Shown: positions 27,975-55,369 of the stretch, piece after piece
Position numbering within the stretch: the first letter of the stretch is position 1
Layout: each line of letters begins with the position of its first letter
From: Saprospiraceae bacterium
Lineage (GTDB): Bacteria > Bacteroidota > Bacteroidia > Chitinophagales > Saprospiraceae
Assembly: GCA_035299145.1 (NCBI GenBank)
Contig: DATGWZ010000023.1
Location: 681,801 to 745,800, forward strand
Direction of reading: 5' to 3'
Length of the DNA stretch: 64,000 nucleotides
Made by a program: the position numbers and the translations under genes
The notes under the pieces: model-generated
Told to the model about the DNA's origin: nothing
The model's input: only the letters and a program-made list of their open reading frames with translations
The model's database searches: none

Positions 27975-28009
27975 TTCCAATAATTGGAAATTTATTCCAT
28001 AATTCGGAA
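27975..28009. promoter_or_regulatory. tandem palindromic operator/UAS pair (TTCCA-N5-TGGAA)
   Basis: 27975-27989 TTCCAATAATTGGAA and 27995-28009 TTCCATAATTCGGAA. The starts are 20 bp apart. About 92-126 nt upstream of the ATG at 28101. Confidence 0.6.
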
Positions 28010-28063
28010 CATTTGGTTATATTTTATTAATATACCTTATTGATTATCAATTAGATATAAAAA

Positions 28064-28079
28064 TGGCATTACTTTGGCA
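28064..28079 (+). promoter_or_regulatory. candidate promoter: sigma-54-like TGGCAT-N5-TGGCA, overlapping a sigma-A type TACTTTGG -7 box
   Basis: TGGCATTACTTTGGCA has GG and GC at the canonical -24/-12 spacing. The same bases also contain TAnnTTTG (28070-28077). Confidence 0.4.
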
Positions 28080-28100
28080 CCCATATTACAAAATAAAGAT

Positions 28101-30461
28101 ATGGTGCGCGATATTTATAAGGTAATGGGGCTGATCCCTTCCAATAAACACGAATCAAAAGAAGTGTATGCAGTCAAAAATCCGGACGGGACTATTCGCT
28201 GGATTTGGCCAGTAGAACTTAAAAAACCAGAATTCCTGAGGTTCTATAATGAAAGCCCAACTAAAGCCGCCATTTATGTTGTTTTGATCAAATTAATATT
28301 CTCGTTTCGCTTACAGTCATGGTTTTTTAGCAAACAAAAAGTCAATGTTCCAGATATTTTAGGCGAAAAGTGGGCAATCTTTACTGGGACCATAGGAACG
28401 CAACAGAAATTGGTGATTTATGCCAATGACACTTTTGTTAAATTGCCTGTAGGTAAAAATGCAAAAGTTAGCTTAGAACGTGAAAAATCCACGCTTAATT
28501 GGCTTCAAAAGCAAACTTTTTCAACATTGAAGCATCCAAAAGTAATAGAAAATGGTGACTTTGAATATTGTCAAACTGCCTTTGATAAAAATATAAAAAG
28601 ATCTCCTATTTTAACCAATACACATTTAGATTTTACGCAAGAATTATTCAGTAAATCGCTCCAAAAAGTAACATTAAGTGAAAGTGAATCCTATGTCAAT
28701 TCAATGGCTTTGCTCCGACAATTAGAACACGATCCCAAAATGCCCAAGGGTTTACATGCAAAGCTTTATCTACTCCAATCACAATTAGATCAAGATAAAC
28801 TAACAGATTTTGGATTTGCACATGGAGATTTTACATCATGGAATATGTTTGTCTCCGAAAATAAATTATTTGTCTATGATTGGGAAGCAGCAGATGCAGA
28901 AATGCCCAAGGGATTTGATCTTTTTCATTTCATCATACAACAAGGTATTTTAGTGGACAGGAATGATTGGTCAAAAACTTATCAAGTCTTGTCAGAAAAA
29001 TTATTAAAAAGCGAAAAGCATCCTTTTTTTGAATCTATCGACGAGATGAATAGATATTTGTCCCTATATCTTTTATATCATATCACACGGTCTATGTCAA
29101 ATTATGTGGCACAGAAATGCTGGCACCCTCAGATATATTGGATGATAGATATGTGGAATACAGCATTAGATAACTTGATTGTCAATACATCTCAACGACA
29201 GCTTTTTATCAATACCCTTTTTGATCATTTAAAGCCGATTGAATATGCAGGGATAAAATTATCAGACTCTCATCCGGACTTTTGGTCAGAAGATTCTGAC
29301 ATTGATATTCTGATGAGACAAAAAGACTTAAGTTATATCACTCAATTATGCCATAATTCACCACTGAAAAACAAAGTAGTCACTACATCCAAGTCATTTA
29401 TGGAAAACATAGCTATCTACTTTCACGATGGTAGCTTTTTAAGCCTTGATTTGATACATAAATTAAAAAGAAAAAGCCAAGTATTTTTAGATGCAGACGC
29501 ATTATTAAGTAGATCAATAGTCAATGATCACGGCATCAAAACCTTGCACCCTACAGACGAAATGAGATATATCGTTTGGTTTTATGCTTTGAATAATACC
29601 CAAGTTCCATTTAAATATATGGGCAAAAAAATACATTTGCAATACGCCAATGGAAATGAAGATCTAGCTTTAATGTCATATTGCAAAGGTGATACAATGA
29701 ATGGGATGGCACTAAATAAGATTATTCTAACTAAAGCGGAAAATCGCGGGTGGAAAGGATTAAAAAATAAACTGTTTTATTATATGGATACCATACGTTC
29801 GTTTTTCCAAAATGGTGGCTTAGTCATTACTTTTAGTGGAGTAGATGGCGCCGGCAAATCTACTATTATAGAATATATCAAGTACAAATTAGAAAAAAAT
29901 CTTCGCAAAGATGTGATCGTCCTAAGACATAGACCATCTATACTTCCAATCATCAGTGCGCTAAGACATGGCAAAGAAAAGGCTGAAGCTATCTCCGTAA
30001 GCAAATTGCCGAGAACAGGTCAAAACAAAAACCTATTGTCGTCATTGTTGCGCTTTGGATACTATTATATTGATTTTATTCTAGGCCAATTTTATGTGTA
30101 TGTTAAGTATGTCATGCGCGGCAAAGTAGTGCTTTATGATAGATATTACTTTGATTTTATCAATGATGGTAAGCGATCAAACATCCTTCTACCTACTTCA
30201 TGGGTAAAATTTGGGTATCGATTTTTGCTCAAACCAGATCTTAATTATTTTTTATACGCCGAAGCAGGTACCATACTAGCTAGAAAACAGGAATTAGATA
30301 TCCAAACTATCGAAACGCTTACAAGTGATTATAAAAACCTTTTTGAACATTATGCAAATACTTATACATCAAGTGATTATATATCAATAGCAAACGAAAA
30401 ACTCGACGATACGCTTTCCATATTATTCAGAGGCGTTAAAACAAAAATATCGCAAATATGA
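28101..30461 (+). CDS. three-domain fusion: APH/choline-kinase-like phosphotransferase, nucleotidyltransferase-like middle region, thymidylate-kinase-like P-loop domain
   Basis: FAHGDFTSWNMF...VYDWE (Brenner-type kinase motifs). EDSDIDILM (pol-beta NTase-like DxD). ITFSGVDGAGKST plus LYDRYYFD (Tmk-like P-loop and DRY). I prefer the ATG at 28101; the ORF track starts at the TTG at 28074. Confidence 0.7.
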   Translation: MVRDIYKVMGLIPSNKHESKEVYAVKNPDGTIRWIWPVELKKPEFLRFYNESPTKAAIYVVLIKLIFSFRLQSWFFSKQKVNVPDILGEKWAIFTGTIGTQQKLVIYANDTFVKLPVGKNAKVSLEREKSTLNWLQKQTFSTLKHPKVIENGDFEYCQTAFDKNIKRSPILTNTHLDFTQELFSKSLQKVTLSESESYVNSMALLRQLEHDPKMPKGLHAKLYLLQSQLDQDKLTDFGFAHGDFTSWNMFVSENKLFVYDWEAADAEMPKGFDLFHFIIQQGILVDRNDWSKTYQVLSEKLLKSEKHPFFESIDEMNRYLSLYLLYHITRSMSNYVAQKCWHPQIYWMIDMWNTALDNLIVNTSQRQLFINTLFDHLKPIEYAGIKLSDSHPDFWSEDSDIDILMRQKDLSYITQLCHNSPLKNKVVTTSKSFMENIAIYFHDGSFLSLDLIHKLKRKSQVFLDADALLSRSIVNDHGIKTLHPTDEMRYIVWFYALNNTQVPFKYMGKKIHLQYANGNEDLALMSYCKGDTMNGMALNKIILTKAENRGWKGLKNKLFYYMDTIRSFFQNGGLVITFSGVDGAGKSTIIEYIKYKLEKNLRKDVIVLRHRPSILPIISALRHGKEKAEAISVSKLPRTGQNKNLLSSLLRFGYYYIDFILGQFYVYVKYVMRGKVVLYDRYYFDFINDGKRSNILLPTSWVKFGYRFLLKPDLNYFLYAEAGTILARKQELDIQTIETLTSDYKNLFEHYANTYTSSDYISIANEKLDDTLSILFRGVKTKISQI

Positions 30462-31183
30462 AAAACTTACTTCTATACTTCATTAGAAAGAGAAATCCTG
30501 ATTTTGTGATCGACAACGCTATAAGTAGTCGCTTTCTATTGGGATACATGCTTTCACTAGCTATAAAGGTGATGCGTGGTAGCAAGTTGTTTTTTATGGG
30601 TAGAAATCCCAAAGGGATGATACTTTCCTCTGGTGTAAAAATGACTTATCTATCTAAAATACAATGGGGTAAATTCCTAAAATTGGGTAAAAATGTAAGC
30701 CTAAGTGGATTGGGAAAAGAGGGCATCATCTTTGGTGACAATGTTAGTATAGGTGACTATAGTCAGATCATTGTCGCTACTACACTACAGAATATTGGAA
30801 AAGGTATTCACATCGGTCATCATGTGGGTATTGGAGAGTTTGCGTATCTTGGTGGTGCAGGTGGCTTAACTATAGGAGATGACTGTATCGTAGGTCAATA
30901 CTTTAGCTGTCATCCCGAAAACCACAATTTTAAAGATGTAGACTCACTCATCAGATTTCAAGGCGTGCAACGTAAAGGCATTATTATTGGCAAAAATTGC
31001 TGGATAGGAAGCAAAGTTACGATACTTGATGGCGTGGCAATTGGTGATGGTTGTGTAATAGCAGCAGGGGCAGTAGTCAATCAGTCTTTTCCTGCCAATA
31101 CCATCATAGGTGGTGTGCCGGCAAAAATAATAGGGCAAAGATGTCCTGAATTATCTTTTCACAAGATAAAAAATATTGCCTAA
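30458..31183 (+). CDS. hexapeptide-repeat (LbH) acyl/acetyltransferase
   Basis: Repeated [LIV]-G-x4 hexapeptides, e.g. IGKNCWIGSKVTILDGVAIGDGCVIAAGAVV. ATGA overlap with the upstream gene. Confidence 0.8.
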   Translation: MKNLLLYFIRKRNPDFVIDNAISSRFLLGYMLSLAIKVMRGSKLFFMGRNPKGMILSSGVKMTYLSKIQWGKFLKLGKNVSLSGLGKEGIIFGDNVSIGDYSQIIVATTLQNIGKGIHIGHHVGIGEFAYLGGAGGLTIGDDCIVGQYFSCHPENHNFKDVDSLIRFQGVQRKGIIIGKNCWIGSKVTILDGVAIGDGCVIAAGAVVNQSFPANTIIGGVPAKIIGQRCPELSFHKIKNIA

Positions 31184-32404
31184 ATGAAAACGATTCTTGC
31201 CACCACTTATGCAGTAAATCCATATAAAGGATCAGAAGATGGAATGGGATGGAATTTTGTGTTGCAAATAGCAAAAAACAATAAAGTCATAGCCATCACT
31301 AGGAAAAACAATAGAATGGACATTGAAAAATATATGTCTTCAAACCCAAATGATCTTTATGAAAATATGACTTTTCTTTATTTTGATTTGCCATACTGGA
31401 TGCGATGGTGGAAAAAAGGTGGCCGTGGTGCCATGCTTTATTACTGGATGTGGCAGAAAGGCATCGTTTCTTTTGTTAAAAACCAAAGTCTAGAATTTGA
31501 TATAGTGCATAACCTTAATTTTCACAATGACTGGACTCCCAGTTATTTATGGCAATTGGGCAAACCATTTGTATGGGGACCTGTAGGTCACCATCCATTG
31601 ATTCCAAGTCAATACCTTAAGGAATATTCATTCAAATATTTTTTAAAGGATCGGGCGACTTGGCTTATTAAAAATTATTTCTGGAAAGTCAATACATCCC
31701 TAAAGAATACAGCTGCAAAAGCAGATTTCGTTTGGTGCATGAATGACGCTGTACCTAGTAAACTCCATCTTAAACCAAAGCAGTACCAAATAATTCCTTC
31801 AGTAGCAACCCAAGATTTCGGTTTTATAGAAGGTTCGGAGAATGAAAATTTCACATTTATCTCTGCGGGTAGATTAGTTCCATTAAAGGGTTTTGATCTT
31901 GCTATTCGAGCTTTTACAACGTTTTATAATACCTTAAGTGATATAGAAAAAGCAAAAACAAAACTCATCATTGTTGGTAGTGGACCAGAAGATAAACTAC
32001 TTATAAAACTAGCTAGAGATTTAGGAGTAGAAAATAATATCCAATTTGTACTGTGGATGGAAAGGAATGAACTTATGAAATTATTTAAACAGTCGCAAGT
32101 ATTCCTATTCCCATCTCATGAGGGAGCTGGCATGGTCGTCCCTGAAGCTTTGTCATTCGGTCTGCCAGTGATTTGTCTCGACAATTGTGGCCCTGGTAGT
32201 TTTATAAACGAACAATGCGGTATTAAAATAAAGGAAGATACATATGATAATACCACAGTCAATCTAGCAGAAGCGATGCGAACTTTATATTCGGATAAAG
32301 CAAAATACAAAGGATTGAGACAAGGCGCAAGAGCACAGTTTGAGCATGTTTTTCATTGGGATAGACGTGGTGAACAATTGGCCAAAATTTATGACTCTTT
32401 ATAA
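31184..32404 (+). CDS. glycosyltransferase family 4 (GT-B fold)
   Basis: C-terminal FLFPSHEGAGMVVPEALSFGLPVI (EX7E motif). Confidence 0.8.
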   Translation: MKTILATTYAVNPYKGSEDGMGWNFVLQIAKNNKVIAITRKNNRMDIEKYMSSNPNDLYENMTFLYFDLPYWMRWWKKGGRGAMLYYWMWQKGIVSFVKNQSLEFDIVHNLNFHNDWTPSYLWQLGKPFVWGPVGHHPLIPSQYLKEYSFKYFLKDRATWLIKNYFWKVNTSLKNTAAKADFVWCMNDAVPSKLHLKPKQYQIIPSVATQDFGFIEGSENENFTFISAGRLVPLKGFDLAIRAFTTFYNTLSDIEKAKTKLIIVGSGPEDKLLIKLARDLGVENNIQFVLWMERNELMKLFKQSQVFLFPSHEGAGMVVPEALSFGLPVICLDNCGPGSFINEQCGIKIKEDTYDNTTVNLAEAMRTLYSDKAKYKGLRQGARAQFEHVFHWDRRGEQLAKIYDSL

Positions 32405-32411
32405 ATAAACC

Positions 32412-33497
32412 ATGAGAATATTTGCCTTTCATCTCCTAAACGATTATAGTGGTAGTCCTAAAGTATTAAAACAACTTGTCAATGGTTGGACCAATAACGG
32501 TATGGATTGTCATATAGTCACATGCAGCGGGAGAGAAGGGTTTTTGTCAGATATCAAAGGGGTAAAATATCACCATTATTGGTATAGATTTGCTCAGAAT
32601 CCATTCTTGAGATTGATTTTTCTAATGATCAGTCAGTTGCTTTTGATTATTAAAATGTATCCTGTCATCACAAAAAGCGACGTAATATACGTCAATACAG
32701 TGCTGCCCTTTGGTGCAGGAATATTAGGAAAGTTAAAAGGGTGTAAAGTCATATATCATATCCACGAAACAAGTATGAAACCTTGGATATTGAAAAAAAT
32801 TCTATTTGGAATTGCAGACGCTACATCCACAGAAGTAGTTTATGTATCCAAATATCTATCTGAACAGGAAACGATGAAAAAACCTGGACATGTGCTGTAC
32901 AATGCTTTGGAAACTTCTTTTTTGTCCAAAGCATTATTAAACAGAAAAGTGACACCTGATTATAAAAATGTGCTGATGATATGCTCCCTCAAAGCATACA
33001 AAGGTGTGAATGAGTATTTACAACTAGCAAAAAAAAATCCAGAATATGCTTTCCGACTTGTAGTGAATGCTTCTGCCATGGACATAGAAGTATATTTTGC
33101 AGGTCAAAATCTTCCGCAAAACTTAACGATATTTCCTACACAAAAAGATGTACATCCACAATATCAATGGGCTGATGTGGTCCTTAATTTGTCTCGTCCT
33201 GATGGATGGGTAGAAACATTTGGCCTTACAGTCATCGAAGCAATGGCTTATGGTCTCCCTGTCATAGTGCCTCCCGTAGGAGGAATAGCCGAGCTCGTAG
33301 AGAAAGGTGTTAATGGCTATAAAGCCGATAGCAGAAACGTCAATCACATATCACACCTGCTTGTGGATATATTGGAAGATAAAATACACTACGAAAAACT
33401 CAGTACCTACGCCAAGCAACTGATTGTCAAATATGACGAAGATAGTTTTGTGATGAAGAGTTGCGAGATGTTGAAAGATGAGCGTATTGCTCAATAA
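32412..33497 (+). CDS. glycosyltransferase family 4 (GT-B fold)
   Basis: ETFGLTVIEAMAYGLPVIVPPVGGIAELV motif. Confidence 0.8.
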   Translation: MRIFAFHLLNDYSGSPKVLKQLVNGWTNNGMDCHIVTCSGREGFLSDIKGVKYHHYWYRFAQNPFLRLIFLMISQLLLIIKMYPVITKSDVIYVNTVLPFGAGILGKLKGCKVIYHIHETSMKPWILKKILFGIADATSTEVVYVSKYLSEQETMKKPGHVLYNALETSFLSKALLNRKVTPDYKNVLMICSLKAYKGVNEYLQLAKKNPEYAFRLVVNASAMDIEVYFAGQNLPQNLTIFPTQKDVHPQYQWADVVLNLSRPDGWVETFGLTVIEAMAYGLPVIVPPVGGIAELVEKGVNGYKADSRNVNHISHLLVDILEDKIHYEKLSTYAKQLIVKYDEDSFVMKSCEMLKDERIAQ

Positions 33498-33516: not shown

Positions 33517-33551
33517 GCCCAATCGTTGGAAATGTTTTCCATTATCTGGAA
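33517..33551. promoter_or_regulatory. tandem operator/UAS pair (degenerate plus perfect TTCCA-N5-TGGAA)
   Basis: 33517-33531 GCCCAATCGTTGGAA and 33537-33551 TTCCATTATCTGGAA, in a 20-bp register. They lie in the only intergenic gap of the plus-strand glycosyltransferase arm. Confidence 0.55.
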
Positions 33552-33603
33552 AATCTAAAAAATAAAAATTACATAATAGATTGATATTCAATTATATAAA
33601 TAC

Positions 33604-33619
33604 TGGCACAGTATTGTAA
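33604..33619 (+). promoter_or_regulatory. TGGCAC box (sigma-54 -24-like; the -12 is poor)
   Basis: TGGCACAGTATTGTAA, 32 nt upstream of the ATG at 33636 and 60 nt from the centre of the proximal palindrome. Confidence 0.35.
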
Positions 33620-33635
33620 CTAGTTAAACTAAATA

Positions 33636-34856
33636 ATGAATATGACATCTTTAAAACAAAAAATAGCCATCATAGGCACAGTAGGTCTCCCAGCCAAATA
33701 TGGTGGATTCGAAACATTGGCTGAGCATCTTGTAGACAATATGAGTGATGATTATGACATCACCGTCTATTGCTCTGGAAAGAAATATGCACAGGCTGAC
33801 CGTCAACCCAAATACAAAAATGCTCATCTTGTATATTTACCTTTGGATGCCAATGGGATTCAGAGCATACCTTATGATTCTTGGTCTATAATCCATGCAT
33901 TGTTTTATGCAGATGTACTTTTGATATTAGGAGTTGCTGGAGCATGGATGCTACCGTTTGTAAAATTTTTTACAAATAAAAAGATCATTATTTCTATAGA
34001 TGGTATTGAATGGAAACGGAACAAATGGAGCAGACCTGCCAAGTGGTATCTATGGTGGGCAGAAAAAATGGCCGTAAAATATTCTCATATTGATATTTCA
34101 GATAATGAATCTATACAAGATTATACAGCGGTCAGATATGGGACTCTAAGCAGAATTATAGAATATGGAGCAGATCATACAATGACGGTTCCTGTACAAA
34201 CTTCATTAAAAACTTCTTATCCATTTCTTGGATTGCCTTACGCTTTTAAAGTATGCCGAATCGAACCAGAAAATAATGTGGATATTGTACTAAGTGCATT
34301 CTCAAAACTACCCAAACACCGTCTAGTCATCATAGGCAACTGGAATAATAGTGATTATGGCAAAAACCTTAAAAAAAAGTACAGCTCTTTTAATCATATC
34401 TTTTTGTTAGATCCAATCTATGACCAATCGACCTTAGATATGATACGTGGTAATGCATTCCTTTACATACATGGACACTCTGCCGGAGGTACCAATCCTT
34501 CCTTAGTAGAAGCTATGTATCTGGGCTTACCTATTTTTTCTTATGGTGTTACCTACAATCGCACGACAACAGAAAACAAAGCCAGATATTTTTATAATGA
34601 AGAAGAACTTATAAATCTAATTAACAATACCCAAATTGCAGAAGTAAAATCTATCGGCAATACAATGAAGGAGATTGCCTATCGTAGATATACATGGAAA
34701 ACAATAGCTGATAAATACCGGGCATTAATACGAGAAGTTTTAGTTAGCGAGCCGAAATCATCTATCACGCCTTCGGTAACTTTATTACCGGCAGGAGAGT
34801 TGCTAAAACGAGAATTATATCACCTACATTTCCAAAAACTGTTTTTCCAAAAATAA
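33636..34856 (+). CDS. DUF1972-type glycosyltransferase (rhamnosyl/glucosyltransferase WchF-like)
   Basis: N-terminal IAIIGTVGLPAKYGGFETLAEHL (DUF1972 pattern) and C-terminal GGTNPSLVEAM. Confidence 0.75.
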   Translation: MNMTSLKQKIAIIGTVGLPAKYGGFETLAEHLVDNMSDDYDITVYCSGKKYAQADRQPKYKNAHLVYLPLDANGIQSIPYDSWSIIHALFYADVLLILGVAGAWMLPFVKFFTNKKIIISIDGIEWKRNKWSRPAKWYLWWAEKMAVKYSHIDISDNESIQDYTAVRYGTLSRIIEYGADHTMTVPVQTSLKTSYPFLGLPYAFKVCRIEPENNVDIVLSAFSKLPKHRLVIIGNWNNSDYGKNLKKKYSSFNHIFLLDPIYDQSTLDMIRGNAFLYIHGHSAGGTNPSLVEAMYLGLPIFSYGVTYNRTTTENKARYFYNEEELINLINNTQIAEVKSIGNTMKEIAYRRYTWKTIADKYRALIREVLVSEPKSSITPSVTLLPAGELLKRELYHLHFQKLFFQK

Positions 34857-34862
34857 ATAATC

Positions 34863-35969
34863 ATGGCACCATCTGACATATTTTTAGTTTTAGGCATCGT
34901 ACTATCATTTTTTTTATCCATAATAGTGATGCCTATCTTTAGATCCATTGCTATTAGAATTGGTCTAGTAGATAAACCAGATCATCGCAAAATCCATCAA
35001 AACCATATTCCTTTAGTAGGTGGCTTAGCGATTGGTTTTACATTACTACTCACTTTATTGTTACTAGCAAGATTTGAGCTTATTTCAAGTGCGTTGGTAA
35101 AACTATTGGGGGGCAGTTATGTGTTGTTGATTATCGGAGCAATAGATGACAAAAAGGACATTAGAGCATCATATAAACTTGTAGTTCAGATTCTTTGCGC
35201 CATAATTATTGCTATGGCTGGTTACAGATTGACTTCATTTCATGGCATCTTAGGTATTTATGACATTTCTCTGGTCGCCCAATACATACTCTCAGTCATA
35301 CTAATTACTGGAGTCATTAATGCATTTAATCTAATGGATGGTATTGACGGTCTGGCTGGAGGATTAATGCTTATAGGTTTTATGATACTTGCTACAATCA
35401 GCTATTATATTGGGCATGAATTTTATACTTTGCTATGTTTGATCGTAGCGGGTAGCTTGATCAGTTTTTTAAGGTTCAATGTATTTAGTCCTAAAAATAA
35501 GATATTTATGGGTGATGCAGGTTCGCTTTTTTTAGGTTTTCTGATGATAGGCATAGCTATTGATTTAATAAATATTGCATCTAAGGATGCAATTGGGGCC
35601 GAAGTAATTTGGTTACTTCCTTTAATTATTGCTGTATTTATAATACCAGTTGCTGATTCTCTACGTGTGTATTTCACTAGAATCAAAAATGGTAATTCGC
35701 CATTTAAAGCAGATAGATCACATATCCATCATCTATTTCTAGAATTGGGATTGAAGCACACAAAGGTCACTTTTATCATATCAATGTTGAGCTTAAGCCT
35801 AGTAATTCTCGCATTTTTATTTCACTTTATATGGACATTAGATATCATCTTATTGGGTATAGTCGCGATGCTGAGCATCATGTATTATATTCTGAATATC
35901 AATAAACAAGTAAATGAATGGCAACAAAAAATTAAACAGATGGAGTCACAGATGGAGTCACAGATGTAG
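34863..35969 (+). CDS. MraY/WecA-family polyprenol-phosphate hexose/HexNAc-1-phosphate transferase (initiating transferase)
   Basis: About 10 TM helices, AIDDKKD, NAFNLMDGIDGLAGG, MGDAGSLFLGF motifs. Confidence 0.85.
   Translation: MAPSDIFLVLGIVLSFFLSIIVMPIFRSIAIRIGLVDKPDHRKIHQNHIPLVGGLAIGFTLLLTLLLLARFELISSALVKLLGGSYVLLIIGAIDDKKDIRASYKLVVQILCAIIIAMAGYRLTSFHGILGIYDISLVAQYILSVILITGVINAFNLMDGIDGLAGGLMLIGFMILATISYYIGHEFYTLLCLIVAGSLISFLRFNVFSPKNKIFMGDAGSLFLGFLMIGIAIDLINIASKDAIGAEVIWLLPLIIAVFIIPVADSLRVYFTRIKNGNSPFKADRSHIHHLFLELGLKHTKVTFIISMLSLSLVILAFLFHFIWTLDIILLGIVAMLSIMYYILNINKQVNEWQQKIKQMESQMESQM
35940..35966 (+). repeat. 12-bp tandem duplication (2.25 copies) at the 3' end of the WecA-like gene
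   Basis: ATGGAGTCACAG ATGGAGTCACAG ATG encodes MESQMESQM immediately before the stop. Confidence 0.9.
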
Positions 35970-36102: not shown

Positions 36103-36110
36103 TACCTTTG
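36103..36110 (+). promoter_or_regulatory. Bacteroidota sigma-A type -7 box (TAnnTTTG) for the regulatory operon
   Basis: TACCTTTG lies 15 nt upstream of the GTG at 36125. There is no TTCCA-N5-TGGAA site in this gap. Confidence 0.4.
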
Positions 36111-36124
36111 TTGGACAATTAATT

Positions 36125-37498
36125 GTGTTTATCGTGGCAAAACAACAACTATTCACCATATTCATTGTAGAAGATGATCCTTGGTATGGTCAATTATTAA
36201 GACATCATCTATCGCTCAATCCAGATTATGACATCAGACTCTTTACCACAGCAAAAGAGTGTCTGTCTGAATTGTACCACCAACCCGACGTGGTTTGTAT
36301 TGATTTTGGATTGCCTGATATGAGTGGTGATAAACTATTGACAAAAATAAAGGCTGTCAATAATCAACTACCAGTAGTTGTCATCAGTGGTCAGGAAGAG
36401 ATTGCTGTTGCTGTGGATTTATTAAAATCTGGGGCCAGAGACTACATCATCAAAGATGATCACACCAAAGATATGTTATGGCGTTCTATCATAAATATTC
36501 GTGAAAATGTCCATTTAAAACAAGAGGTAGAATCATTAAAAGAACAACTTGAAACCAAGTTTAACTTTGAAAAAACTATTATCGGTCAGAGTGACGCCTT
36601 AAAAAAGTCATTTAGACTCATCGAAAAAGCTATACATTCTAATATTAATGTATCCATTACAGGAGAGACAGGCACTGGAAAAGAAGTAGTAGCAAAAGCG
36701 ATTCATTACAATAGCGAAAGGAGAAAAAAACCATTTGTCGCTGTAAATATGGCAGCAATACCTAAAGAACTAATAGAAAGTGAGCTTTTCGGACACGAAA
36801 AAGGTGCATTCACTGGTGCGCTAAATCAGAAAAAAGGAAAATTTGAAGAAGCAGATGGCGGTACATTGTTTCTTGATGAAATAGGAGAATTAGAACTCAA
36901 TCTCCAAAGTAAAATCCTTAGAGCTTTACAAGAACGTGAAGTGACTAGAGTAGGTGGCAATAGTAGTGTAAAATTTGATGTAAGACTCATCACTGCTACC
37001 CACAAAAACTTGGCAGATGAAGTCAAAAATGGTAATTTCAGAGAAGATCTTTATTTTAGGATCATCGGTCTTCCTATAGAATTGCCACCTCTCCGTGATC
37101 GTGGACAAGACACATATATTCTAGCAAAACATTTTATCGATGAATATGCTAAAGAAAATAAAGTCAAACCACCTATCTTGACCACGTCAGCAAAAGAAAG
37201 GCTTATTAAATACCATTTTCCTGGTAATGTTCGCGAACTCAAAGCCATGATGGATCTTGCTTGCGTCATGTGTGACGGTCAAGAAATCAACGAACATGAT
37301 ATCAATTTTCATAAGGTCAGAGACAATGACCACTTTCTAGTCGGCGAGAAGACCATGAAAGAATATACAGCTGATATCATTGCCTTTTTCCTAAAAAAAT
37401 ATGACAACAATGTGGTATTGACAGCAGATAAGTTAGACATCGGAAAATCCACCATTTACAATATGATAAAAAGTGGTGAAATCTCCTTAAAAAAGTAA
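36125..37498 (+). CDS. sigma-54-dependent response regulator (REC, AAA+, Fis-type HTH), NtrC family
   Basis: REC with VVCIDFGLPDMSG. Walker A GETGTGKE. ESELFGHEKGAFTGA (GAFTGA loop). C-terminal HTH LDIGKSTIYNMIK. The GTG start is uncertain by a few codons. Confidence 0.9.
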   Translation: MFIVAKQQLFTIFIVEDDPWYGQLLRHHLSLNPDYDIRLFTTAKECLSELYHQPDVVCIDFGLPDMSGDKLLTKIKAVNNQLPVVVISGQEEIAVAVDLLKSGARDYIIKDDHTKDMLWRSIINIRENVHLKQEVESLKEQLETKFNFEKTIIGQSDALKKSFRLIEKAIHSNINVSITGETGTGKEVVAKAIHYNSERRKKPFVAVNMAAIPKELIESELFGHEKGAFTGALNQKKGKFEEADGGTLFLDEIGELELNLQSKILRALQEREVTRVGGNSSVKFDVRLITATHKNLADEVKNGNFREDLYFRIIGLPIELPPLRDRGQDTYILAKHFIDEYAKENKVKPPILTTSAKERLIKYHFPGNVRELKAMMDLACVMCDGQEINEHDINFHKVRDNDHFLVGEKTMKEYTADIIAFFLKKYDNNVVLTADKLDIGKSTIYNMIKSGEISLKK

Positions 37499-37501
37499 AA
37501 T

Positions 37502-38629
37502 ATGAAAATAAAACAGTTCCAAATTATTGATAATCAAGAGTATATAATCGAGCAAGATGATAATATAAATGTCGTTTTATGTTTTGGTAGCAAACAACTA
37601 TTGAATAACCAGAATGTGATAACTGATATATCCAAAGCATTTCCAAACGCAAATATAGCATACTGCTCTACCGCAGGAGAAATATATGATAATCAAGTCA
37701 TGGACAACAGTATTTCTGCTGTAGCTATACAATTTGGTCATACAAAGGTTCTTTCAAATAGCATTTCTATTGATCAATTTTCAAATAGTTTTGATGCAGG
37801 CAAAAGCTTAGTTTCTTGTTTTGATACGCAAGACTTACGGTATATTTTTGTATTGTCTGACGGGAGTAAAGTCAATGGAAGCGAACTCGTCAAAGGGATG
37901 AATGAAGTGATAGACGATCATATACCTATCACAGGCGGTTTGGCAGGAGACGGACCTCATTTTCAAAACACCTTGGTTGGACTGAATGAGCCACCGACTT
38001 CTGGCAAAATATTGGCTTTGGCGTTTTATGGTGTTAAATTAAAAGTATCACACAGCTCTATGGGAGGATGGGAACCTTTTGGTTTGCAAAGATTAGTAAC
38101 AAAATCTAAAGCAAACGAACTATTCGAAATAGATGGGAAAAATGCTTTAGATCTTTACAAAGAGTACCTAGGAAAATACAGTGAAGAATTGCCCGGTTCA
38201 GCACTTCTTTTTCCATTATCTGTACAACTCCATGATAGTGAAAATTCTCTTGTTCGTACCATTTTGTCTATTGATAATGAGCGCAAAAGCATGCTTTTTG
38301 CAGGCGATATCCCAGAAGGTAGCAAAGTTAGATTTATGAAAGCAAATTTTGATAGACTGATAGATGCTGCGAGTCAAGCCGCAAATGTATCAGTGACAGA
38401 TTTTAATAGTATAGAGCCTTCTTTAGCTATTCTTGTCAGTTGTGTAGGCCGCAAACTGATATTGTCAGATAGGATTGATGAAGAAGTAGAAGCCGTCAAA
38501 GATGTTTTGGGCAGTCATACTACTATTAGCGGATTCTATTCCTATGGCGAAATATCTCCTCTGTTAAAAGGCACTTCTTGTGAATTGCACAATCAAACAA
38601 TGACCATCACTTGTCTATCAGAAGAGTAA
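37502..38629 (+). CDS. FIST (N plus C) domain signal-sensing protein
   Basis: No TM or signal peptide. ILVSCVGRKL...GFYSYGEISP pattern recalled from FIST_C. 3 nt downstream of the response-regulator stop. Confidence 0.65.
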   Translation: MKIKQFQIIDNQEYIIEQDDNINVVLCFGSKQLLNNQNVITDISKAFPNANIAYCSTAGEIYDNQVMDNSISAVAIQFGHTKVLSNSISIDQFSNSFDAGKSLVSCFDTQDLRYIFVLSDGSKVNGSELVKGMNEVIDDHIPITGGLAGDGPHFQNTLVGLNEPPTSGKILALAFYGVKLKVSHSSMGGWEPFGLQRLVTKSKANELFEIDGKNALDLYKEYLGKYSEELPGSALLFPLSVQLHDSENSLVRTILSIDNERKSMLFAGDIPEGSKVRFMKANFDRLIDAASQAANVSVTDFNSIEPSLAILVSCVGRKLILSDRIDEEVEAVKDVLGSHTTISGFYSYGEISPLLKGTSCELHNQTMTITCLSEE

Positions 38630-38651
38630 TATCCACACAAAACAAAGTAAA

Positions 38652-41600
38652 ATGTATCATAAATTACTGAAAAAACAGATCAATAAGTTCCTAAATGATG
38701 ATCTACAAAAGGATGCAGAAATTCAGGAATTTCTTAAACATATCAATCAGTCATACCTATCCTTTGAGCGTGATAAAGATATAATGAATCATGCATTCAG
38801 TGTCAGTGAGAAAGAATTTCAAGAAGTAAACGAAAGTCTTAAAAAAGAATCTGAAGTAAGACAGATTACAATAGAAAAACTAAAAGAAGTTGTATTTCAA
38901 CTTGTAGATGAAGATCATTTTTTTGACAAATCTGAAAAGGATGATTTGTACAAAATTTCAGAATTTATCAACCTTCAAATACAAAAAAATAAAGGAACAG
39001 AAGAAAACCTAAAACGGACCATAAACTTATTCAAAACGCTATTAGCCAATCTCCAATCAGGTGTATTGGTTGAGAATGAAAATAGAGAAATCTTATTTAC
39101 CAATCATCTTTTTTGCAAAATGTTCGAAATACCGGCACCTCCAGATGCTTTGATAGGTGCTGACTGTTCTCAATCTGCAGAATTGAGCAAACATCTATTT
39201 TCTGATCCAGAAAGTTTTGTGTTATCAATAAATAAAATTCTTAATGAACAAATACCTGTTTACAATGAACTGATAGAAACAGTTTCTGGTCATTTCTATG
39301 AGCGCGATTACGTTCCGATCTTTATTGACAAGATATATAAAGGTCATTTATGGCAATACAAAGATATCACTGAAAGGGTCAATTACGAAAAACTCCTTCG
39401 CGAAAATGAAGAGCTAAATCGACTCATCATGGATACTGCCATGGATGCCATTACCCTGGCTGACACCAAAGGAGTTATCAGGTATTGGAATCCTGCAGCC
39501 GCTCAGTTATTTGGGTTTGCCAATGAAGATGCTATCGGAAGCAAATTGGCAGATACCATCATACCTATGAGACTTCGGGATGCGCATGAATCAGGCATGC
39601 AAAGATTTAATACAACTGGCGTAGGCAGAATATTTAACATGAGGCTAGAGTTACCAGCCTTACATGCTGACGGTCATGAGTTTCCAATAGAAATGTATAT
39701 CATAGGTTTTGAACAAAAAGGAGAGAAACTTTTTTGTGCTTTTATTAAGGATATAACTGAAAGAGTCGAAGCACAAAAAATTATTGACCAACAATTACAA
39801 CTGCAGGATTTACTCATCAATATATCATCTACATATATTAACATAGACCTTGATCAGGTCGAACACACTATAAATAAATCATTGCAAGAACTTGGCAAAT
39901 TTGTGGGAGCTGACCGGGCATATATTTTTGATTATGACTTTGAATTAAATACCACTTCCAATACTTATGAATGGTGCGAAGAAGGTACCACACCTGAATT
40001 TAATAATCTACAAAACGTTTCACTTGATTTTATGCCACAATGGGTAGAAAAACATAAGCAAGGTCTACCATTTTACATTCCCGACATGGAGTTACTTCCC
40101 TATGAAGGACCTGAAAGCCTTCGAGGCGTATTAGAGCCACAAGGAATAAAAAGTCTTATCACCATCCCAATGATAAGTAATAGTAAACTGATAGGTTTTG
40201 TAGGCTTCGATTCCGTAAAAGATAAACATGAATATTCTGAAAAAGAAATGAAGTTGTTGTCTCTTTTTGCCCAAATGTTGATTAATATATTCGAAAGAAA
40301 AAGAAAAGAAAACCTCCTTACAAAACAAGAAGAAAAATATCGTAATATTATAGCAAATATGAATCTTGGCTTATTGGAAGTGACACCAGACGAGACCATT
40401 ATTTTTGCTAATCAAAGCTTTTGTGATATGTCAGGTTATACAATTGAAGACTTGAAAGGAGAAAAAGCAATCAAATTTTTATTGTACGATGACGACCAAG
40501 AAGTATTAAACGAAAAGCTAAAACTGCGAGAAAAGGGTCAGTCAGACAGTTACGAAATAGCCGTCAAAAACAAGCAAGGTGAAATTCGCTGGTGGTTTAT
40601 CAGCGGAGCCCCAAATTATAATGATCGCAATGAATTAATTGGCTCCATAGGTATCCATCTAGACATTACCAATCAAAAAAAATTGGAAAAAGAACTGGAA
40701 AAAGCCAAACTGCAAGCTGAAGATGCATCTCGCGCCAAGGAATCTTTTCTGGCCAATATGAGTCATGAAATCCGTACACCACTTAATGCGATCATAGGTA
40801 TGATCAGAGAGTTGGGTCGTGAAGAACTGACCCCAAAACAAAACTCATACGTTAGCCATAGTGAGACAGCCGCAAGACACCTACTCACTATCGTCAATAA
40901 TATCCTTGATATGTCAAAGATCGAAGCTGGCGAATTGATTATTGATGCTAAGGAATTTAGCTTAATGTCAGTGATCGGAAATGTCATCAGTATCCTACAT
41001 TCAAAAGCACAAGAAAAGAAACTTGAACTTAATTACCATATAAGTCCTGATATCAAACCTGCCCTAATAGGCGATAGCGGTAGAGTCAGACAAATCCTTA
41101 TAAATCTAGTAGGGAATGCCATAAAATTTACCGATGCAGGCAAAATAGACCTTTCAGTAAATGTAAAACAAACCAATCAATATTTCCAACAACTAAGTTT
41201 TGAAATCAAAGACACAGGAATAGGTATGAATAAAGAATACCTAAATCAAATATTTAATAAGTTTTCGCAAGAAGAAGGGTCAGCCGCAAGAAGATACGAA
41301 GGTACTGGTCTTGGGATGACCATTACAAAAGAAATGATAAACCTTATGGGCGGAAATTGCGAAATACAAAGTGAAAAAGGAATAGGCACAACAGTAACAT
41401 TTAACCTTACACTACCTGTAGGTGACGAAAATAAACTGGTTGATAAAGATAGTTACCTTGTGGATGATAGCTTGCAAAATCTTAAGATTCTTTTGGTAGA
41501 AGATAATGAGATGAATAGCTTTATTGCATGTCAAAGTTTACATTATTTTGGGTGTATCGTAGATACTGCAAGTAACGGTATAGAAGCGATAGAAAAATTA

Positions 41601-42230
41601 GCAGTCCAAAAACCAGACCTTATTTTAATGGATATCCAAATGCCTGAAATGGACGGTATAGAAGCCACCAAATTTATTAGGGACGAAATGGCTATCTCTA
41701 CCCCAATAATCGCCTTGACGGCAAATGCATTTAAGCGCGACATAGATTTATATTTATCTATTGGTATGAATGATTATGTCACTAAACCATTCGAAGAAAA
41801 TGTACTATTTAACACCATTGCAAATACGCTAAATATTAAAACAAAAACACCAACTCTGACTAATATTTTGCAAAGCAAACCATCAAATGAGACACCATTG
41901 TATGATCTTACAAATATTAAAACATTGAGTCGTGGCGATCAGTCTTTTGTCAATAAAATGATTGAAATTTTTGTAGAACATACCCCAACTTCTGTGACTG
42001 AAATAAAAGTCGCTTTCGAAAATCAAGATTACTTGACGATCAGTAAGATAGCACACAGAATGAAACCAAGTATTGACAATATGGGCATTCATTTACTAAA
42101 AAATCCCATCAGAGAGTTGGAGTCAAGTGCCAAAATGGAAGTCGTGGATGATAAAAAGGTCGAATTATTAATAGAAAATATTGAAAATACCTTGGCAAAA
42201 GTGATAGAGGATTTGAAGGCAACAACTTAA
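38652..42230 (+). CDS. soluble hybrid sensor histidine kinase (coiled coil, PAS x2-3, GAF, HisKA, HATPase_c, REC, HPt)
   Basis: H-box MSHEIRTPLNAIIGM. N/G boxes LINLVGNAIKFT and DTGIGM...GTGLGM. REC LVEDNEMN...LILMDIQMPEMDG. HPt AHRMKPS. No TM helices. Confidence 0.9.
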   Translation: MYHKLLKKQINKFLNDDLQKDAEIQEFLKHINQSYLSFERDKDIMNHAFSVSEKEFQEVNESLKKESEVRQITIEKLKEVVFQLVDEDHFFDKSEKDDLYKISEFINLQIQKNKGTEENLKRTINLFKTLLANLQSGVLVENENREILFTNHLFCKMFEIPAPPDALIGADCSQSAELSKHLFSDPESFVLSINKILNEQIPVYNELIETVSGHFYERDYVPIFIDKIYKGHLWQYKDITERVNYEKLLRENEELNRLIMDTAMDAITLADTKGVIRYWNPAAAQLFGFANEDAIGSKLADTIIPMRLRDAHESGMQRFNTTGVGRIFNMRLELPALHADGHEFPIEMYIIGFEQKGEKLFCAFIKDITERVEAQKIIDQQLQLQDLLINISSTYINIDLDQVEHTINKSLQELGKFVGADRAYIFDYDFELNTTSNTYEWCEEGTTPEFNNLQNVSLDFMPQWVEKHKQGLPFYIPDMELLPYEGPESLRGVLEPQGIKSLITIPMISNSKLIGFVGFDSVKDKHEYSEKEMKLLSLFAQMLINIFERKRKENLLTKQEEKYRNIIANMNLGLLEVTPDETIIFANQSFCDMSGYTIEDLKGEKAIKFLLYDDDQEVLNEKLKLREKGQSDSYEIAVKNKQGEIRWWFISGAPNYNDRNELIGSIGIHLDITNQKKLEKELEKAKLQAEDASRAKESFLANMSHEIRTPLNAIIGMIRELGREELTPKQNSYVSHSETAARHLLTIVNNILDMSKIEAGELIIDAKEFSLMSVIGNVISILHSKAQEKKLELNYHISPDIKPALIGDSGRVRQILINLVGNAIKFTDAGKIDLSVNVKQTNQYFQQLSFEIKDTGIGMNKEYLNQIFNKFSQEEGSAARRYEGTGLGMTITKEMINLMGGNCEIQSEKGIGTTVTFNLTLPVGDENKLVDKDSYLVDDSLQNLKILLVEDNEMNSFIACQSLHYFGCIVDTASNGIEAIEKLAVQKPDLILMDIQMPEMDGIEATKFIRDEMAISTPIIALTANAFKRDIDLYLSIGMNDYVTKPFEENVLFNTIANTLNIKTKTPTLTNILQSKPSNETPLYDLTNIKTLSRGDQSFVNKMIEIFVEHTPTSVTEIKVAFENQDYLTISKIAHRMKPSIDNMGIHLLKNPIRELESSAKMEVVDDKKVELLIENIENTLAKVIEDLKATT

Positions 42231-42283: not shown

Positions 42284-42318
42284 TTCCAATAAGAAACATA
42301 AAATTCCATAATTTGGAA
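42284..42318. promoter_or_regulatory. tandem operator/UAS pair (half-site plus perfect TTCCA-N5-TGGAA)
   Basis: TTCCA at 42284-42288 (right half degenerate) and 42304-42318 TTCCATAATTTGGAA, in a 20-bp register. 107-141 nt upstream of the ATG at 42425. Confidence 0.55.
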
Positions 42319-42385
42319 TTTAAAACCTATCAATTTATTCCTATGTTATTGATAATGTGATTATTATGAAAGAGGATTGATTTTT

Positions 42386-42401
42386 GGCATACTGCTCATG
42401 T
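42386..42401 (+). promoter_or_regulatory. TGGCAT box (sigma-54 -24-like; no -12 GC)
   Basis: TGGCATACTGCTCATG, 39 nt upstream of the ATG at 42425. Confidence 0.3.
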
Positions 42402-42424
42402 ATTTACAAATAAAAAATAAACAC

Positions 42425-53910: not shown

Positions 53911-53934
53911 TATAAAATGTTGTTAACTTGGTAT

Positions 53935-53950
53935 GTATATGATAAAGCCA
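53935..53950 (-). promoter_or_regulatory. TGGCT box (weak sigma-54 -24-like) inside the loop of an 11-bp inverted repeat
   Basis: The minus strand reads TGGCTTTATCATATAC, 40 nt upstream of the ATG at 53910. The inverted-repeat arms are 53927-53937 and 53953-53963. Confidence 0.25.
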
Positions 53951-54013
53951 TTTACATACCAAGATGTATTATATTGATAATTAATTACTTATGAAATGTT
54001 TGAATAGAATGTA

Positions 54014-55239: not shown

Positions 55240-55267
55240 GGTAACATATTTTTGTTATGTTACTATA

Positions 55268-55283
55268 AACGAAGGTTATGCCA
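55268..55283 (-). promoter_or_regulatory. TGGCAT box (sigma-54 -24-like; the -12 reads TCGTT)
   Basis: The minus strand reads TGGCATAACCTTCGTT, 44 nt upstream of the ATG at 55239 and 60 nt from the centre of the palindrome. Confidence 0.35.
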
Positions 55284-55335
55284 ATTTACAAATAATTGAT
55301 ATACAGCTATATACAAAATAATAAAAAATTTTAAA

Positions 55336-55369
55336 TTCCATATTTTGGAATCAATTCCACATGAAAGAT
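55336..55369. promoter_or_regulatory. operator/UAS pair (perfect TTCCA-N5-TGGAA plus half-site) in the divergent receiver-wza / GH53 intergenic region
   Basis: 55336-55350 TTCCATATTTTGGAA and TTCCA at 55355-55359, in a 19-bp register. Confidence 0.55.

What the first reader, a model, noticed from the sequence alone, without database searches (positions are those of the whole stretch)
28064..28079. A TGGCW box follows every operator pair at a fixed distance: sigma-54-like -24 elements with weak or atypical -12, and one that overlaps a sigma-A -7 box
The five boxes, read on the coding strand, are listed below.
- 28064 TGGCATTACTTTGGCA
- 33604 TGGCACAGTATTGTAA
- 42386 TGGCATACTGCTCATG
- 53950 (minus) TGGCTTTATCATATAC
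- 55283 (minus) TGGCATAACCTTCGTT

They lie 37, 32, 39, 40 and 44 nt upstream of their start codons. They lie 60-62 nt (three cases), 71 nt and 75 nt from the centre of the nearest palindrome. TGGC should be rare in these AT-rich spacers, so five out of five looks non-random.

Only the first box keeps both the GG and the GC of the canonical TGGCAC-N5-TTGCA at correct spacing. The 55283 box keeps TCG. The other three lack the -12 GC. The first box also contains TACTTTGG, a match to the Bacteroidota sigma-A -7 consensus TAnnTTTG, so the promoter class there is ambiguous.

Two readings are possible. This may be a sigma-54 regulon with an unusual -12 region, or the TGGCW box may belong to something else, such as an ECF-type promoter or an extra protein site.
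Basis: partly seen in the sequence, partly recalled or inferred. Interest (0 to 1): 0.6.

Follow-up and report, generated by a model that had tools for sequence, protein, structure and literature searches.

The report
Sigma-54 promoters of an exopolysaccharide locus
The TGGCA boxes are most likely the -24 elements of sigma-54 promoters that switch on four (perhaps five) operons of a polysaccharide-export locus, and their odd-looking -12 halves are normal for this bacterial phylum rather than exceptional.

Summary
The five boxes exist; one coordinate is off by one (42385, not 42386). Four read TGGCAY; the fifth reads TGGCT.

They are not chance. The enhancer-plus-TGGCA pattern gives 3 window hits against 0.01 expected. 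It recurs in 29 of 43 genomes of the genus and in two other families, always before orthologous EPS genes.

Sigma-54 is the best reading (about 0.85):
- The locus encodes an NtrC-type activator with GAFTGA.
- The genome has a single canonical rpoN.
- The TTCCA-N5-TGGAA enhancers sit near -86 and -106.
- After TGGCA, the conserved bases are Y5, T11 and G13, exactly in -24/-12 register.
- None of the five spacers has the sigma-A box TAnnTTTG, found before 43% of this genome's genes.

The claimed sigma-A overlap at 28064 is not an exact match.

The "atypical -12" is a benchmark problem. dnaK promoters in 29 of 30 genomes across the order read TGGCAY-N5-TTG, with C following in only 5. TSS-mapped Flavobacterium psychrophilum sigma-54 promoters read TTGA, CTGA, TTGT and TAGT. 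The EPS set additionally relaxes T(-14).

The 53950 box fits the regulon model poorly and lies in a hairpin loop; it is doubtful.

An earlier report of this scan already described the activator cassette and enhancer.

The parts
28064..28079 (+). Unit 1 sigma-54 promoter core, TGGCAT-tactt-TGGCA. It has -24 GG and -13/-12 GC in register. Predicted TSS is near 28090. It drives genes 28101-33497 (kinase-like fusion, acetyltransferase, two GT4).
   Evidence: Conserved in 12 of 12 orthologous upstream regions.
27975..28009 (.). Unit 1 enhancer: two TTCCA-N5-xGGAA palindromes with centres 20 bp apart, about -86 and -106 from the predicted start.
   Evidence: This palindrome type occurs only in this locus of the 6.05 Mb genome.
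28039..28051 (.). Unit 1 middle palindrome ATTGAT-T-ATCAAT, between enhancer and -24 box.
   Evidence: Conserved across three families.
33604..33619 (+). Unit 2 promoter core, TGGCAC-agtat-TGTA. Predicted TSS is near 33630. It drives the DUF1972 glycosyltransferase and the GT family 4 (WecA-like) gene, 33636-35969.
   Evidence: Rank 2 of 36,736 TGGC sites.
33537..33551 (.). Unit 2 enhancer palindrome TTCCATTATCTGGAA, with an extra TGGAA half-site just upstream.
33580..33592 (.). Unit 2 middle palindrome ATTGAT-A-TTCAAT.
42385..42400 (+). Unit 3 promoter core, TGGCAT-actgc-TCAT. T11 is kept and G13 is lost. Predicted TSS is near 42411. It drives the FG-GAP/ASPIC T9SS cargo gene 42425-47038.
   Evidence: rank 89. 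The 85-86 nt architecture is conserved in G017 and G019 orthologues.
42284..42318 (.). Unit 3 enhancer: an imperfect copy plus the perfect TTCCATAATTTGGAA.
55268..55283 (-). Unit 5 promoter core, TGGCAT-aacct-TCGT. Predicted TSS is near 55257. It drives the receiver-only gene, wza and probably the rest of the minus arm down to 48100.
   Evidence: Rank 1 of 36,736 TGGC sites.
55336..55350 (.). Unit 5 enhancer palindrome TTCCAAAATATGGAA, with a TGGAA half-site upstream.
55295..55305 (-). Unit 5 middle box TGTATATCAAT.
53935..53950 (-). Unit 4 box, TGGCTT-tatca-TATA, between wza and the wzc-like gene. It is a doubtful or decayed promoter.
   Evidence: rank 8980. G017 and G031 carry TGGCAT-N5-TCGT here. 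More distant relatives have no spacer at all.
53927..53963 (-). 11-bp perfect inverted repeat that encloses the unit 4 box. As RNA it is a -16.5 kcal/mol hairpin.
   Evidence: z = -5.7.
36125..37498 (+). NtrC-type enhancer-binding protein: receiver, AAA+ domain with GAFTGA, and a C-terminal HTH. It is the presumed activator of the promoters.
37502..42230 (+). FIST protein and hybrid PAS/GAF histidine kinase with HPt. They are the presumed signal input to the activator.

Best explanation
The TGGCA boxes are the -24 elements of sigma-54 (RpoN) promoters that head the transcription units of a roughly 27-kb exopolysaccharide locus.

How it most likely works:
- RpoN holoenzyme sits as a closed complex on TGGCAY-N5-T-(G/A/T)-G-(A/T).
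- The locus-encoded NtrC-type response regulator receives phosphate from the adjacent FIST and hybrid-kinase pair.
- The regulator binds the paired TTCCA-N5-TGGAA enhancers centred about 60 and 80 bp upstream of the box.
- It loops over and uses ATP to open the promoter. Transcription then starts about 26 nt downstream of the T of TGGCA, which leaves 5' leaders of only about 6-18 nt.

The missing C at -12 is the normal state of sigma-54 promoters in this lineage. The EPS promoters are weaker still at -14. They probably bind holoenzyme poorly on their own and depend on the fixed upstream architecture, which includes a conserved ATTGAT-N-ATCAAT palindrome at about -44.

Shown here: the sequence elements, their register, their conservation, and the presence of rpoN and the activator.

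Inferred: which protein binds which site, the start sites, and the dependence on rpoN.

This applies to units 1, 2, 3 and 5. The unit 4 box is doubtful.
For: Sigma-54 machinery and enhancers
- One rpoN is present. Its HTH (STVSRV) and RpoN box (ARRTIAKYRE) align with K. pneumoniae sigma-54.
- The genome has five true enhancer-binding proteins. One lies in the middle of the locus and carries GAFTGA, Walker A and B motifs, a receiver domain and a C-terminal HTH.
- The enhancer-like palindromes occur only in this locus genome-wide.

Conservation in register
- In 38 non-redundant promoters from three families, the bases after the imposed TGGCA are Y5 in 35/38, T11 in 33/38 and G13 in 27/38. These are exactly the positions of the sigma-54 consensus.
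- A matrix built only from other genomes ranks the window's boxes 1, 2, 89 and 143 of 36,736 TGGC sites.

Not sigma-A
- TAnnTTTG is found before 43% of 2265 genes, peaking 20-50 nt from the ATG. It is found in 0/5 of these spacers and in 2/29 relatives.

The lineage's own sigma-54 model
- dnaK, htpG and grpE here read TGGCAW-N5-TTGA.
- dnaK upstream regions in 29 of 30 genomes from the order's families read TGGCAY-N5-TTG, followed by A in 20, T in 4 and C in 5.
- TSS-mapped F. psychrophilum sigma-54 promoters read CTGA (groS), TTGA (clpB), TAGT (remF, validated by mutagenesis), TTGT (twice) and TTGC (once) (PMC9723704).

Genome-wide avoidance
- TGGCAY-N5-TTG is depleted to 0.60 of phase-matched spacings (P = 2e-9). 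The depletion occurs only with the TGGCAY core and only at N5.
- It also holds for TTG[ATG] (0.66) and TGG[AT] (0.64).
- In the genus, TGGCAY-N5-TKGW is rarer than the N8 control in 42 of 43 genomes, 4133 against 5121 sites.
Against: - There are no transcript 5' ends and no rpoN or activator mutant.
- Units 3 and 4 lack G13. Unit 2 fits better with a 4-nt than a 5-nt spacer.
- The T[A/C]G forms, frequent in the regulon, show no genome-wide avoidance. Binding strength for them is therefore unsupported by that test.
- The predicted leaders are very short (6-18 nt).
- The 38-promoter set was collected with TGGCA imposed. Only the positions outside it count, together with the protein-anchored sets.
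- The avoidance signal is an indirect inference from composition.
Confidence: 0.85

Rival explanations
1. The TGGCA box is a binding site for some other protein. For example, it could form a composite operator with the ATTGAT-N-ATCAAT palindrome. The operons would then be transcribed by sigma-A or an ECF sigma factor from elements not yet recognised.
For: A third conserved palindrome lies only 8-13 nt upstream of the box, and nothing identifies what binds it. Some promoters read TCGT at +11 to +14, which resembles the CGT of ECF -10 boxes.
Against: - There is no TAnnTTTG in any of the five spacers, and no TAnnTTGY pattern in the position table.
- The two conserved blocks are 6 nt apart. That fits -24/-12 geometry, not the 16-19 nt of sigma-70-family promoters.
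- An activator with GAFTGA needs a sigma-54 promoter as its target, and none other is present in the locus.
- The conserved T11 and G13 fall exactly on sigma-54 consensus positions.
Confidence: 0.08
2. The boxes are sigma-54 promoters, but the degenerate -12 is a regulon-specific adaptation. It would set low occupancy or a leaky, partly activator-independent basal level. It would not simply be the lineage norm.
For: T at position 12 is invariant in 29 dnaK promoters but occurs in only 8/38 EPS promoters. The consensus C at -12 is reported to keep basal transcription in check (PMC4551910).
Against: The missing C itself is shared with the lineage's chaperone promoters and with F. psychrophilum. 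Only the -14 relaxation is special. The validated remF promoter of F. psychrophilum also reads TAGT.
Confidence: 0.3
3. The unit 4 box (53950, TGGCT) is not a promoter. It would be the loop of an intercistronic RNA hairpin in a transcript that runs from the unit 5 promoter through wza into the wzc-like gene.
For: - The box fits the regulon matrix poorly, at rank 8980.
- A perfect 11-bp stem gives -16.5 kcal/mol with z = -5.7.
- Relatives at 50-56% identity have wza and wzc adjacent with no spacer.
Against: G017 and G031 carry a good TGGCAT-N5-TCGT with the middle box at the same place. Degenerate enhancer half-sites remain upstream in the window. The site may therefore be a weakened but live promoter.
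Confidence: 0.5

Closest known systems
Sigma-54 (-24/-12) promoters as compiled for Proteobacteria (TGGCAC-N5-TTGCW; Barrios et al. 1999, cited in PMC4551910)
   Same: They share the -24 TGGCAY, one helical turn to a T..G element, upstream enhancer sites, and an AAA+ activator with GAFTGA encoded nearby.
   Different: The C at -12 is conserved in 96% of compiled promoters. Here it is at background frequency, 5/38. T(-14) is also variable.
TSS-mapped sigma-54 (SM4) promoters of Flavobacterium psychrophilum (PMC9723704)
   Same: Both are from the same phylum. The -12 forms are the same: TTGA, TTGT, TAGT and CTGA, with C rare. They also control surface functions such as the sprB gliding operon. 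In this genome a consensus TGGCACGTGTTTTGCA site sits before an SprB-repeat giant protein.
   Different: The SM4 genes named in the parts of that paper examined (its Table 2A and the supplement rows retrieved) are chaperones, gliding genes and exported proteins, not an EPS locus. No TTCCA-N5-TGGAA enhancer is described there. The paper calls the motif 'typical' and does not remark on the missing C.
Pseudomonas putida Pu and other weak sigma-54 promoters that need an architectural protein (IHF) to recruit holoenzyme (from memory, not tested here)
   Same: Both have a weak core promoter and a conserved element between enhancer and promoter at a fixed distance.
   Different: The middle element here is a symmetric palindrome, ATTGAT-N-ATCAAT. 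That points to a dimeric regulator rather than the asymmetric IHF site. Its binding protein is unknown.
EPS loci under sigma-54 activators in other phyla (BerB/Bep in Burkholderia, PMC9684580; PEP-CTERM/PrsR, PMC1569441; the theme in Francke et al. 2011, PMC3162934)
   Same: A dedicated enhancer-binding protein is embedded in, or lies next to, a polysaccharide biosynthesis and export locus.
   Different: The phylum, the sensor module (FIST plus a soluble hybrid kinase), the enhancer sequence and the -12 form all differ.

Membership tests
sigma-54-dependent promoter | -24 element with the GG doublet (TGGCAY) | tested here: met
   TGGCAT or TGGCAC is present at 28064, 33604, 42385 and 55283. At 53950 the box is TGGCT, with the GG kept. 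It is conserved in orthologous promoters chosen by protein only.
sigma-54-dependent promoter | -12 element with the GC doublet, 10 bp from the GG | tested here: not met
   Only unit 1 has GC in register. C14 occurs in 5/38 regulon promoters. However, G(-13) and T(-15) are conserved in register. The lineage's own sigma-54 promoters also lack the C, so the criterion as usually written does not fit this phylum.
sigma-54-dependent promoter | rpoN present in the genome with intact DNA-binding determinants | tested here: met
   There is a single 499-aa RpoN. It aligns full length to solved sigma-54 structures, and its HTH and RpoN box are conserved.
sigma-54-dependent promoter | Cognate AAA+ activator with a GAFTGA loop | tested here: met
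   ORF 36125-37498 matches Sigma54_activat at 1.8e-71. GAFTGA, Walker A and B motifs, a receiver domain and an HTH are present.
sigma-54-dependent promoter | Upstream activator sites about 80-150 bp from the start | tested here: met
   Paired palindromes are centred about 60 and 80 bp upstream of the box. That is about -86 and -106.
sigma-54-dependent promoter | Transcription start about 12 nt downstream of the -12 element; dependence on rpoN and the activator | not testable with these tools
No transcript data were available.
Bacteroidota sigma-A promoter | -7 box TAnnTTTG about 20-50 nt upstream of the start codon | tested here: not met
   It is present in 0/5 window spacers and 2/29 relatives, against 43% of 2265 genes of this genome.
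ECF / sigma-70-family promoter | Two conserved elements separated by 16-19 nt | tested here: not met
   The conserved blocks (positions 0-5 and 11-13) are 5-6 nt apart. No further conserved block lies downstream up to +26.

The most novel reading that the evidence does not exclude
Sigma-54 promoters of Bacteroidota as a whole may have dropped the near-universal C at -12. The consensus would be TGGCAY-N5-TTG(A/T), and the EPS regulon would go further, to T-R-G-W.

The C at -12 forms the fork junction that locks the closed complex. Its loss would mean that this phylum's enhancer-dependent polymerase is silenced and opened somewhat differently. It would also mean that promoter searches built on the proteobacterial matrix systematically miss regulons such as this one.
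Probability: 0.5. Interest if true: 0.6.

Novelty: new variant of a known kind. Interest (0 to 1): 0.42.

Why it matters
The result completes the wiring diagram of a conserved exopolysaccharide switch in Saprospiraceae-like Bacteroidota: sensor pair, then activator, then enhancer, then sigma-54 promoter on each operon.

It also shows that the textbook -12 GC rule is a poor guide in this phylum. Matrix-based sigma-54 regulon predictions for Bacteroidota are therefore likely to be incomplete.

The role of the -12 cytosine in keeping sigma-54 promoters silent could be tested in a natural system that lacks it.

Tried and rejected
1. Spacing peak in intergenic DNA. I looked for a genome-wide excess of TGGCAY-N5-TTG in intergenic DNA as a spacing peak and found none (20 sites at N5 against 10-24 at other spacings). 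An apparent excess in my hand list was therefore not used as evidence.
2. Enrichment before start codons. TGGCA is not generally enriched 30-50 nt before start codons.
4. Primary papers. Barrios 1999 and Wang/Guo/Gralla 1999 are not held. The 96% figure and the basal-transcription role are cited second-hand from PMC4551910.
5. Internal palindrome. The palindrome at 54505-54519 inside wza has no TGGCA downstream and was set aside as coding sequence.
6. IHF reading of the middle box. WATCAANNNNTTR fits unit 5 only. The element is symmetric, so I do not claim IHF.
7. SM5-type promoter. The sigma-A-like TAnnTTGY motif of F. psychrophilum is not matched by the position table.
8. Order-wide pattern search. 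Most hits outside the genus were coding-sequence coincidences. Only nine, in families f25 and f11, showed the full architecture.
9. Literature. Searches for a prior description of this regulon, or of sigma-54 in Saprospiraceae, found nothing.

Full report
**What is there**

The window is G000:C23:681801-745800 of a 6.05 Mb, 35% GC Bacteroidota genome.

Positions 27.9-55.4 kb hold an exopolysaccharide locus. It has two arms:
- Plus strand: a kinase-like fusion protein, an acetyltransferase and glycosyltransferases, then a WecA-like GT4. Next come a regulatory cassette and a giant FG-GAP/ASPIC cargo protein with a T9SS tail.
- Minus strand: a receiver-only protein, Wza, a Wzc-like protein, an unknown protein, a glycosyltransferase and Wzy.

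The five boxes are real.

**More than chance**

- The enhancer-type palindrome TTCCA-(A/T-rich)5-TGGAA occurs nowhere else in the genome.
- The composite pattern TTCCA-N5-TGGAA-N45-72-TGGCA matches three times in the window, against 0.01 expected.
- It matches in 29 of 43 genomes of the genus, up to six times per genome. The reversed pattern gives about zero.
- Nearly always the gap is exactly 52 nt. One gene family (unit 3) has 66-67 nt in all its orthologues.
- Unit-1 orthologues were found by protein alone, from 96% down to 41% identity. All 12 with an intact upstream region carry TGGCA 35-46 nt before the ATG.
- The same three-part architecture turns up in two other families of the order. 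It again precedes the DUF1972 glycosyltransferase, the receiver gene and secreted proteins.

**Which polymerase**

- The genome has one rpoN. Its product aligns full length to solved sigma-54 structures. It keeps the -12 helix-turn-helix (STVSRV) and the RpoN box (ARRTIAKYRE).
- The genome has five true enhancer-binding proteins. One lies in the centre of this locus at 36125-37498. It has a receiver domain, an AAA+ domain with GAFTGA, and a C-terminal HTH. A FIST protein and a hybrid kinase follow it.
- I collected 38 non-redundant promoters of the regulon: 5 from the window, 24 from the genus and 9 from other families. Outside the imposed TGGCA, the conserved positions are Y at +5 (35/38), T at +11 (33/38) and G at +13 (27/38). 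These are the positions of C, T and G in TGGCAC-N5-TTGC.
- The two conserved blocks are half a turn to one turn apart. That fits -24/-12 geometry and not the 16-19 nt of sigma-70-family promoters.
- A matrix built only from other genomes ranks the window boxes 1, 2, 89 and 143 among all 36,736 TGGC sites of the genome. The 53950 box ranks 8980.

**Not sigma-A**

This organism uses the Bacteroidota -7 box. An exact TAnnTTTG lies within 120 nt of 43% of 2265 genes, peaking 20-50 nt from the ATG. Scrambled motifs give 6-12%. None of the five spacers has one, and only 2 of 29 related promoters do.

It also lacks the final Y of the TAnnTTGY variant described in F. psychrophilum.

**The -12 question**

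The C at -12 is present in only 5 of 38 regulon promoters. It is reported in 96% of compiled sigma-54 promoters (PMC4551910). I first took this for a regulon peculiarity. The lineage's own promoters say otherwise:
- In this genome, dnaK, htpG and grpE read TGGCAW-N5-TTGA. These genes are transcribed from TSS-mapped sigma-54 promoters in F. psychrophilum (PMC9723704).
- dnaK upstream regions from 30 genomes across the order's families contain TGGCAY-N5-TTG in 29. The next base is A in 20, T in 4 and C in 5.
- The F. psychrophilum supplementary table gives CTGA (groS), TTGA (clpB), TAGT (remF, validated by mutagenesis), TTGT (two sRNA promoters) and TTGC (AsmA).
- Full consensus sites also exist here, for instance TGGCACGTGTTTTGCA before an SprB-repeat giant protein.

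So RpoN recognises the classical site, but the C is dispensable in this phylum. What remains special to the EPS regulon is position +12. It is T in all 29 dnaK promoters but G, A or T in the EPS set.

**An indirect read-out of what RpoN binds**

- Across the whole genome, TGGCAY-N5-TTG is depleted to 0.60 of the count at phase-matched spacings (P = 2e-9).
- The depletion is specific. Other cores, such as TGGCAA, TGGCAG, TGCCAY and AGGCAY, give 0.9-1.2. Spacings N3, N4, N6 and N7 give 0.9-1.2.
- It is strongest for TTGC (0.35). It also holds for TTGT (0.49), TTGA (0.67) and TGG[AT] (0.64, P = 0.002). It does not hold for TAG or TCG.
- In the genus, TGGCAY-N5-TKGW is rarer than the N8 control in 42 of 43 genomes (4133 against 5121 sites).
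- I read this as selection against stray holoenzyme-binding sites. On that reading, the C-less forms, including the TGGW common in the EPS regulon, are bound. This is an inference from composition, not a binding assay.

**Unit 4**

The spacer between wza and the wzc-like gene exists only in the closer relatives. G017 and G031 carry a good TGGCAT-N5-TCGT there. Relatives at 50-56% identity have the two genes adjacent.

In the window's clade the box has become TGGCT with TATA at -12. It lies in the loop of a perfect 11-bp hairpin (-16.5 kcal/mol, z = -5.7). It may be a decayed promoter or an intercistronic RNA structure.

**Mechanism proposed**

The FIST and hybrid-kinase pair phosphorylates the activator. 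The activator binds the enhancers at about -86 and -106 and opens RpoN closed complexes at four operons. Transcription starts about 26 nt after the T of TGGCA.

The regulatory cassette itself has no box or enhancer. It does have an exact TACCTTTG sigma-A box at 36103-36110, so it is probably made constitutively.

A conserved palindrome, ATTGAT-N-ATCAAT, is centred 18-19 nt upstream of the box. It belongs to the architecture in all three families. Its binding protein is unknown.

**Limits**

Start sites and rpoN dependence are inferred.

An earlier report of this scan (e1-3900313) had already described the activator cassette and the enhancer. This report adds the promoter half and the lineage-specific -12 model.

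Noticed in passing
window 28039-28051, 33580-33592, 55295-55305 (-); also L138, L140, L154, L156: A third conserved element, the palindrome ATTGAT-N-ATCAAT, is centred 18-19 nt upstream of TGGCA, at about -44. It is kept across three families. Its symmetry suggests a dimeric regulator rather than IHF. No candidate protein was identified.
   Followed up: partly
whole genome G000 and 43 genomes of the genus: TGGCAY-N5-TTG (and TGGW) is under-represented relative to phase-matched spacings. The effect is specific to that core and that spacing. It looks like selection against stray sigma-54 binding sites.
   Followed up: yes
G000:C30:129276 (dnaK), C23:113424 (htpG), C23:~656580 (grpE); L158-L187: Chaperone genes carry TGGCAY-N5-TTGA promoters that are conserved across the families of the order sampled. 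The heat-shock regulon of this lineage appears to be sigma-54 driven with a C-less -12.
   Followed up: partly
G000:C5:53967 (-), C10:255390 (-): Full consensus sigma-54 sites (TGGCACGTGTTTTGCA, TGGTATAATGTTTGCT) lie 54-76 nt before giant surface proteins of 2758 aa (SprB repeats) and 1830 aa (HYR domain).
   Followed up: partly
window 36103-36110: An exact sigma-A -7 box, TACCTTTG, lies 15 nt before the GTG start of the activator gene. The regulatory cassette has no TGGCA box or enhancer of its own.
   Followed up: no
window 53927-53963 (-): A perfect 11-bp inverted repeat encloses the TGGCT box. As RNA it folds at -16.5 kcal/mol (z = -5.7). It is present only in the window's close clade.
   Followed up: partly
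window 54505-54519: A sixth perfect TTCCA-N5-TGGAA palindrome lies inside the wza coding sequence. No TGGCA follows it at the usual distance.
   Followed up: partly
window 28075-28080: The -12 of unit 1 is itself a second TGGCAC. The tandem TGGCA-N6-TGGCA recurs in three unrelated promoters of the regulon (L081, L088, L138).
   Followed up: no
L113 (G062:C2:2642-4840): One relative carries a second, decayed copy of the wzc-like gene with 24 in-frame stops. It lies next to an intact copy of the unit 5 promoter.
   Followed up: no
window 57867-59135 (-): A second enhancer-binding protein lies next to a MiaB-like radical SAM gene. It has an AAA+ domain and HTH_8 but no receiver. It is unrelated to the EPS locus.
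   Followed up: no
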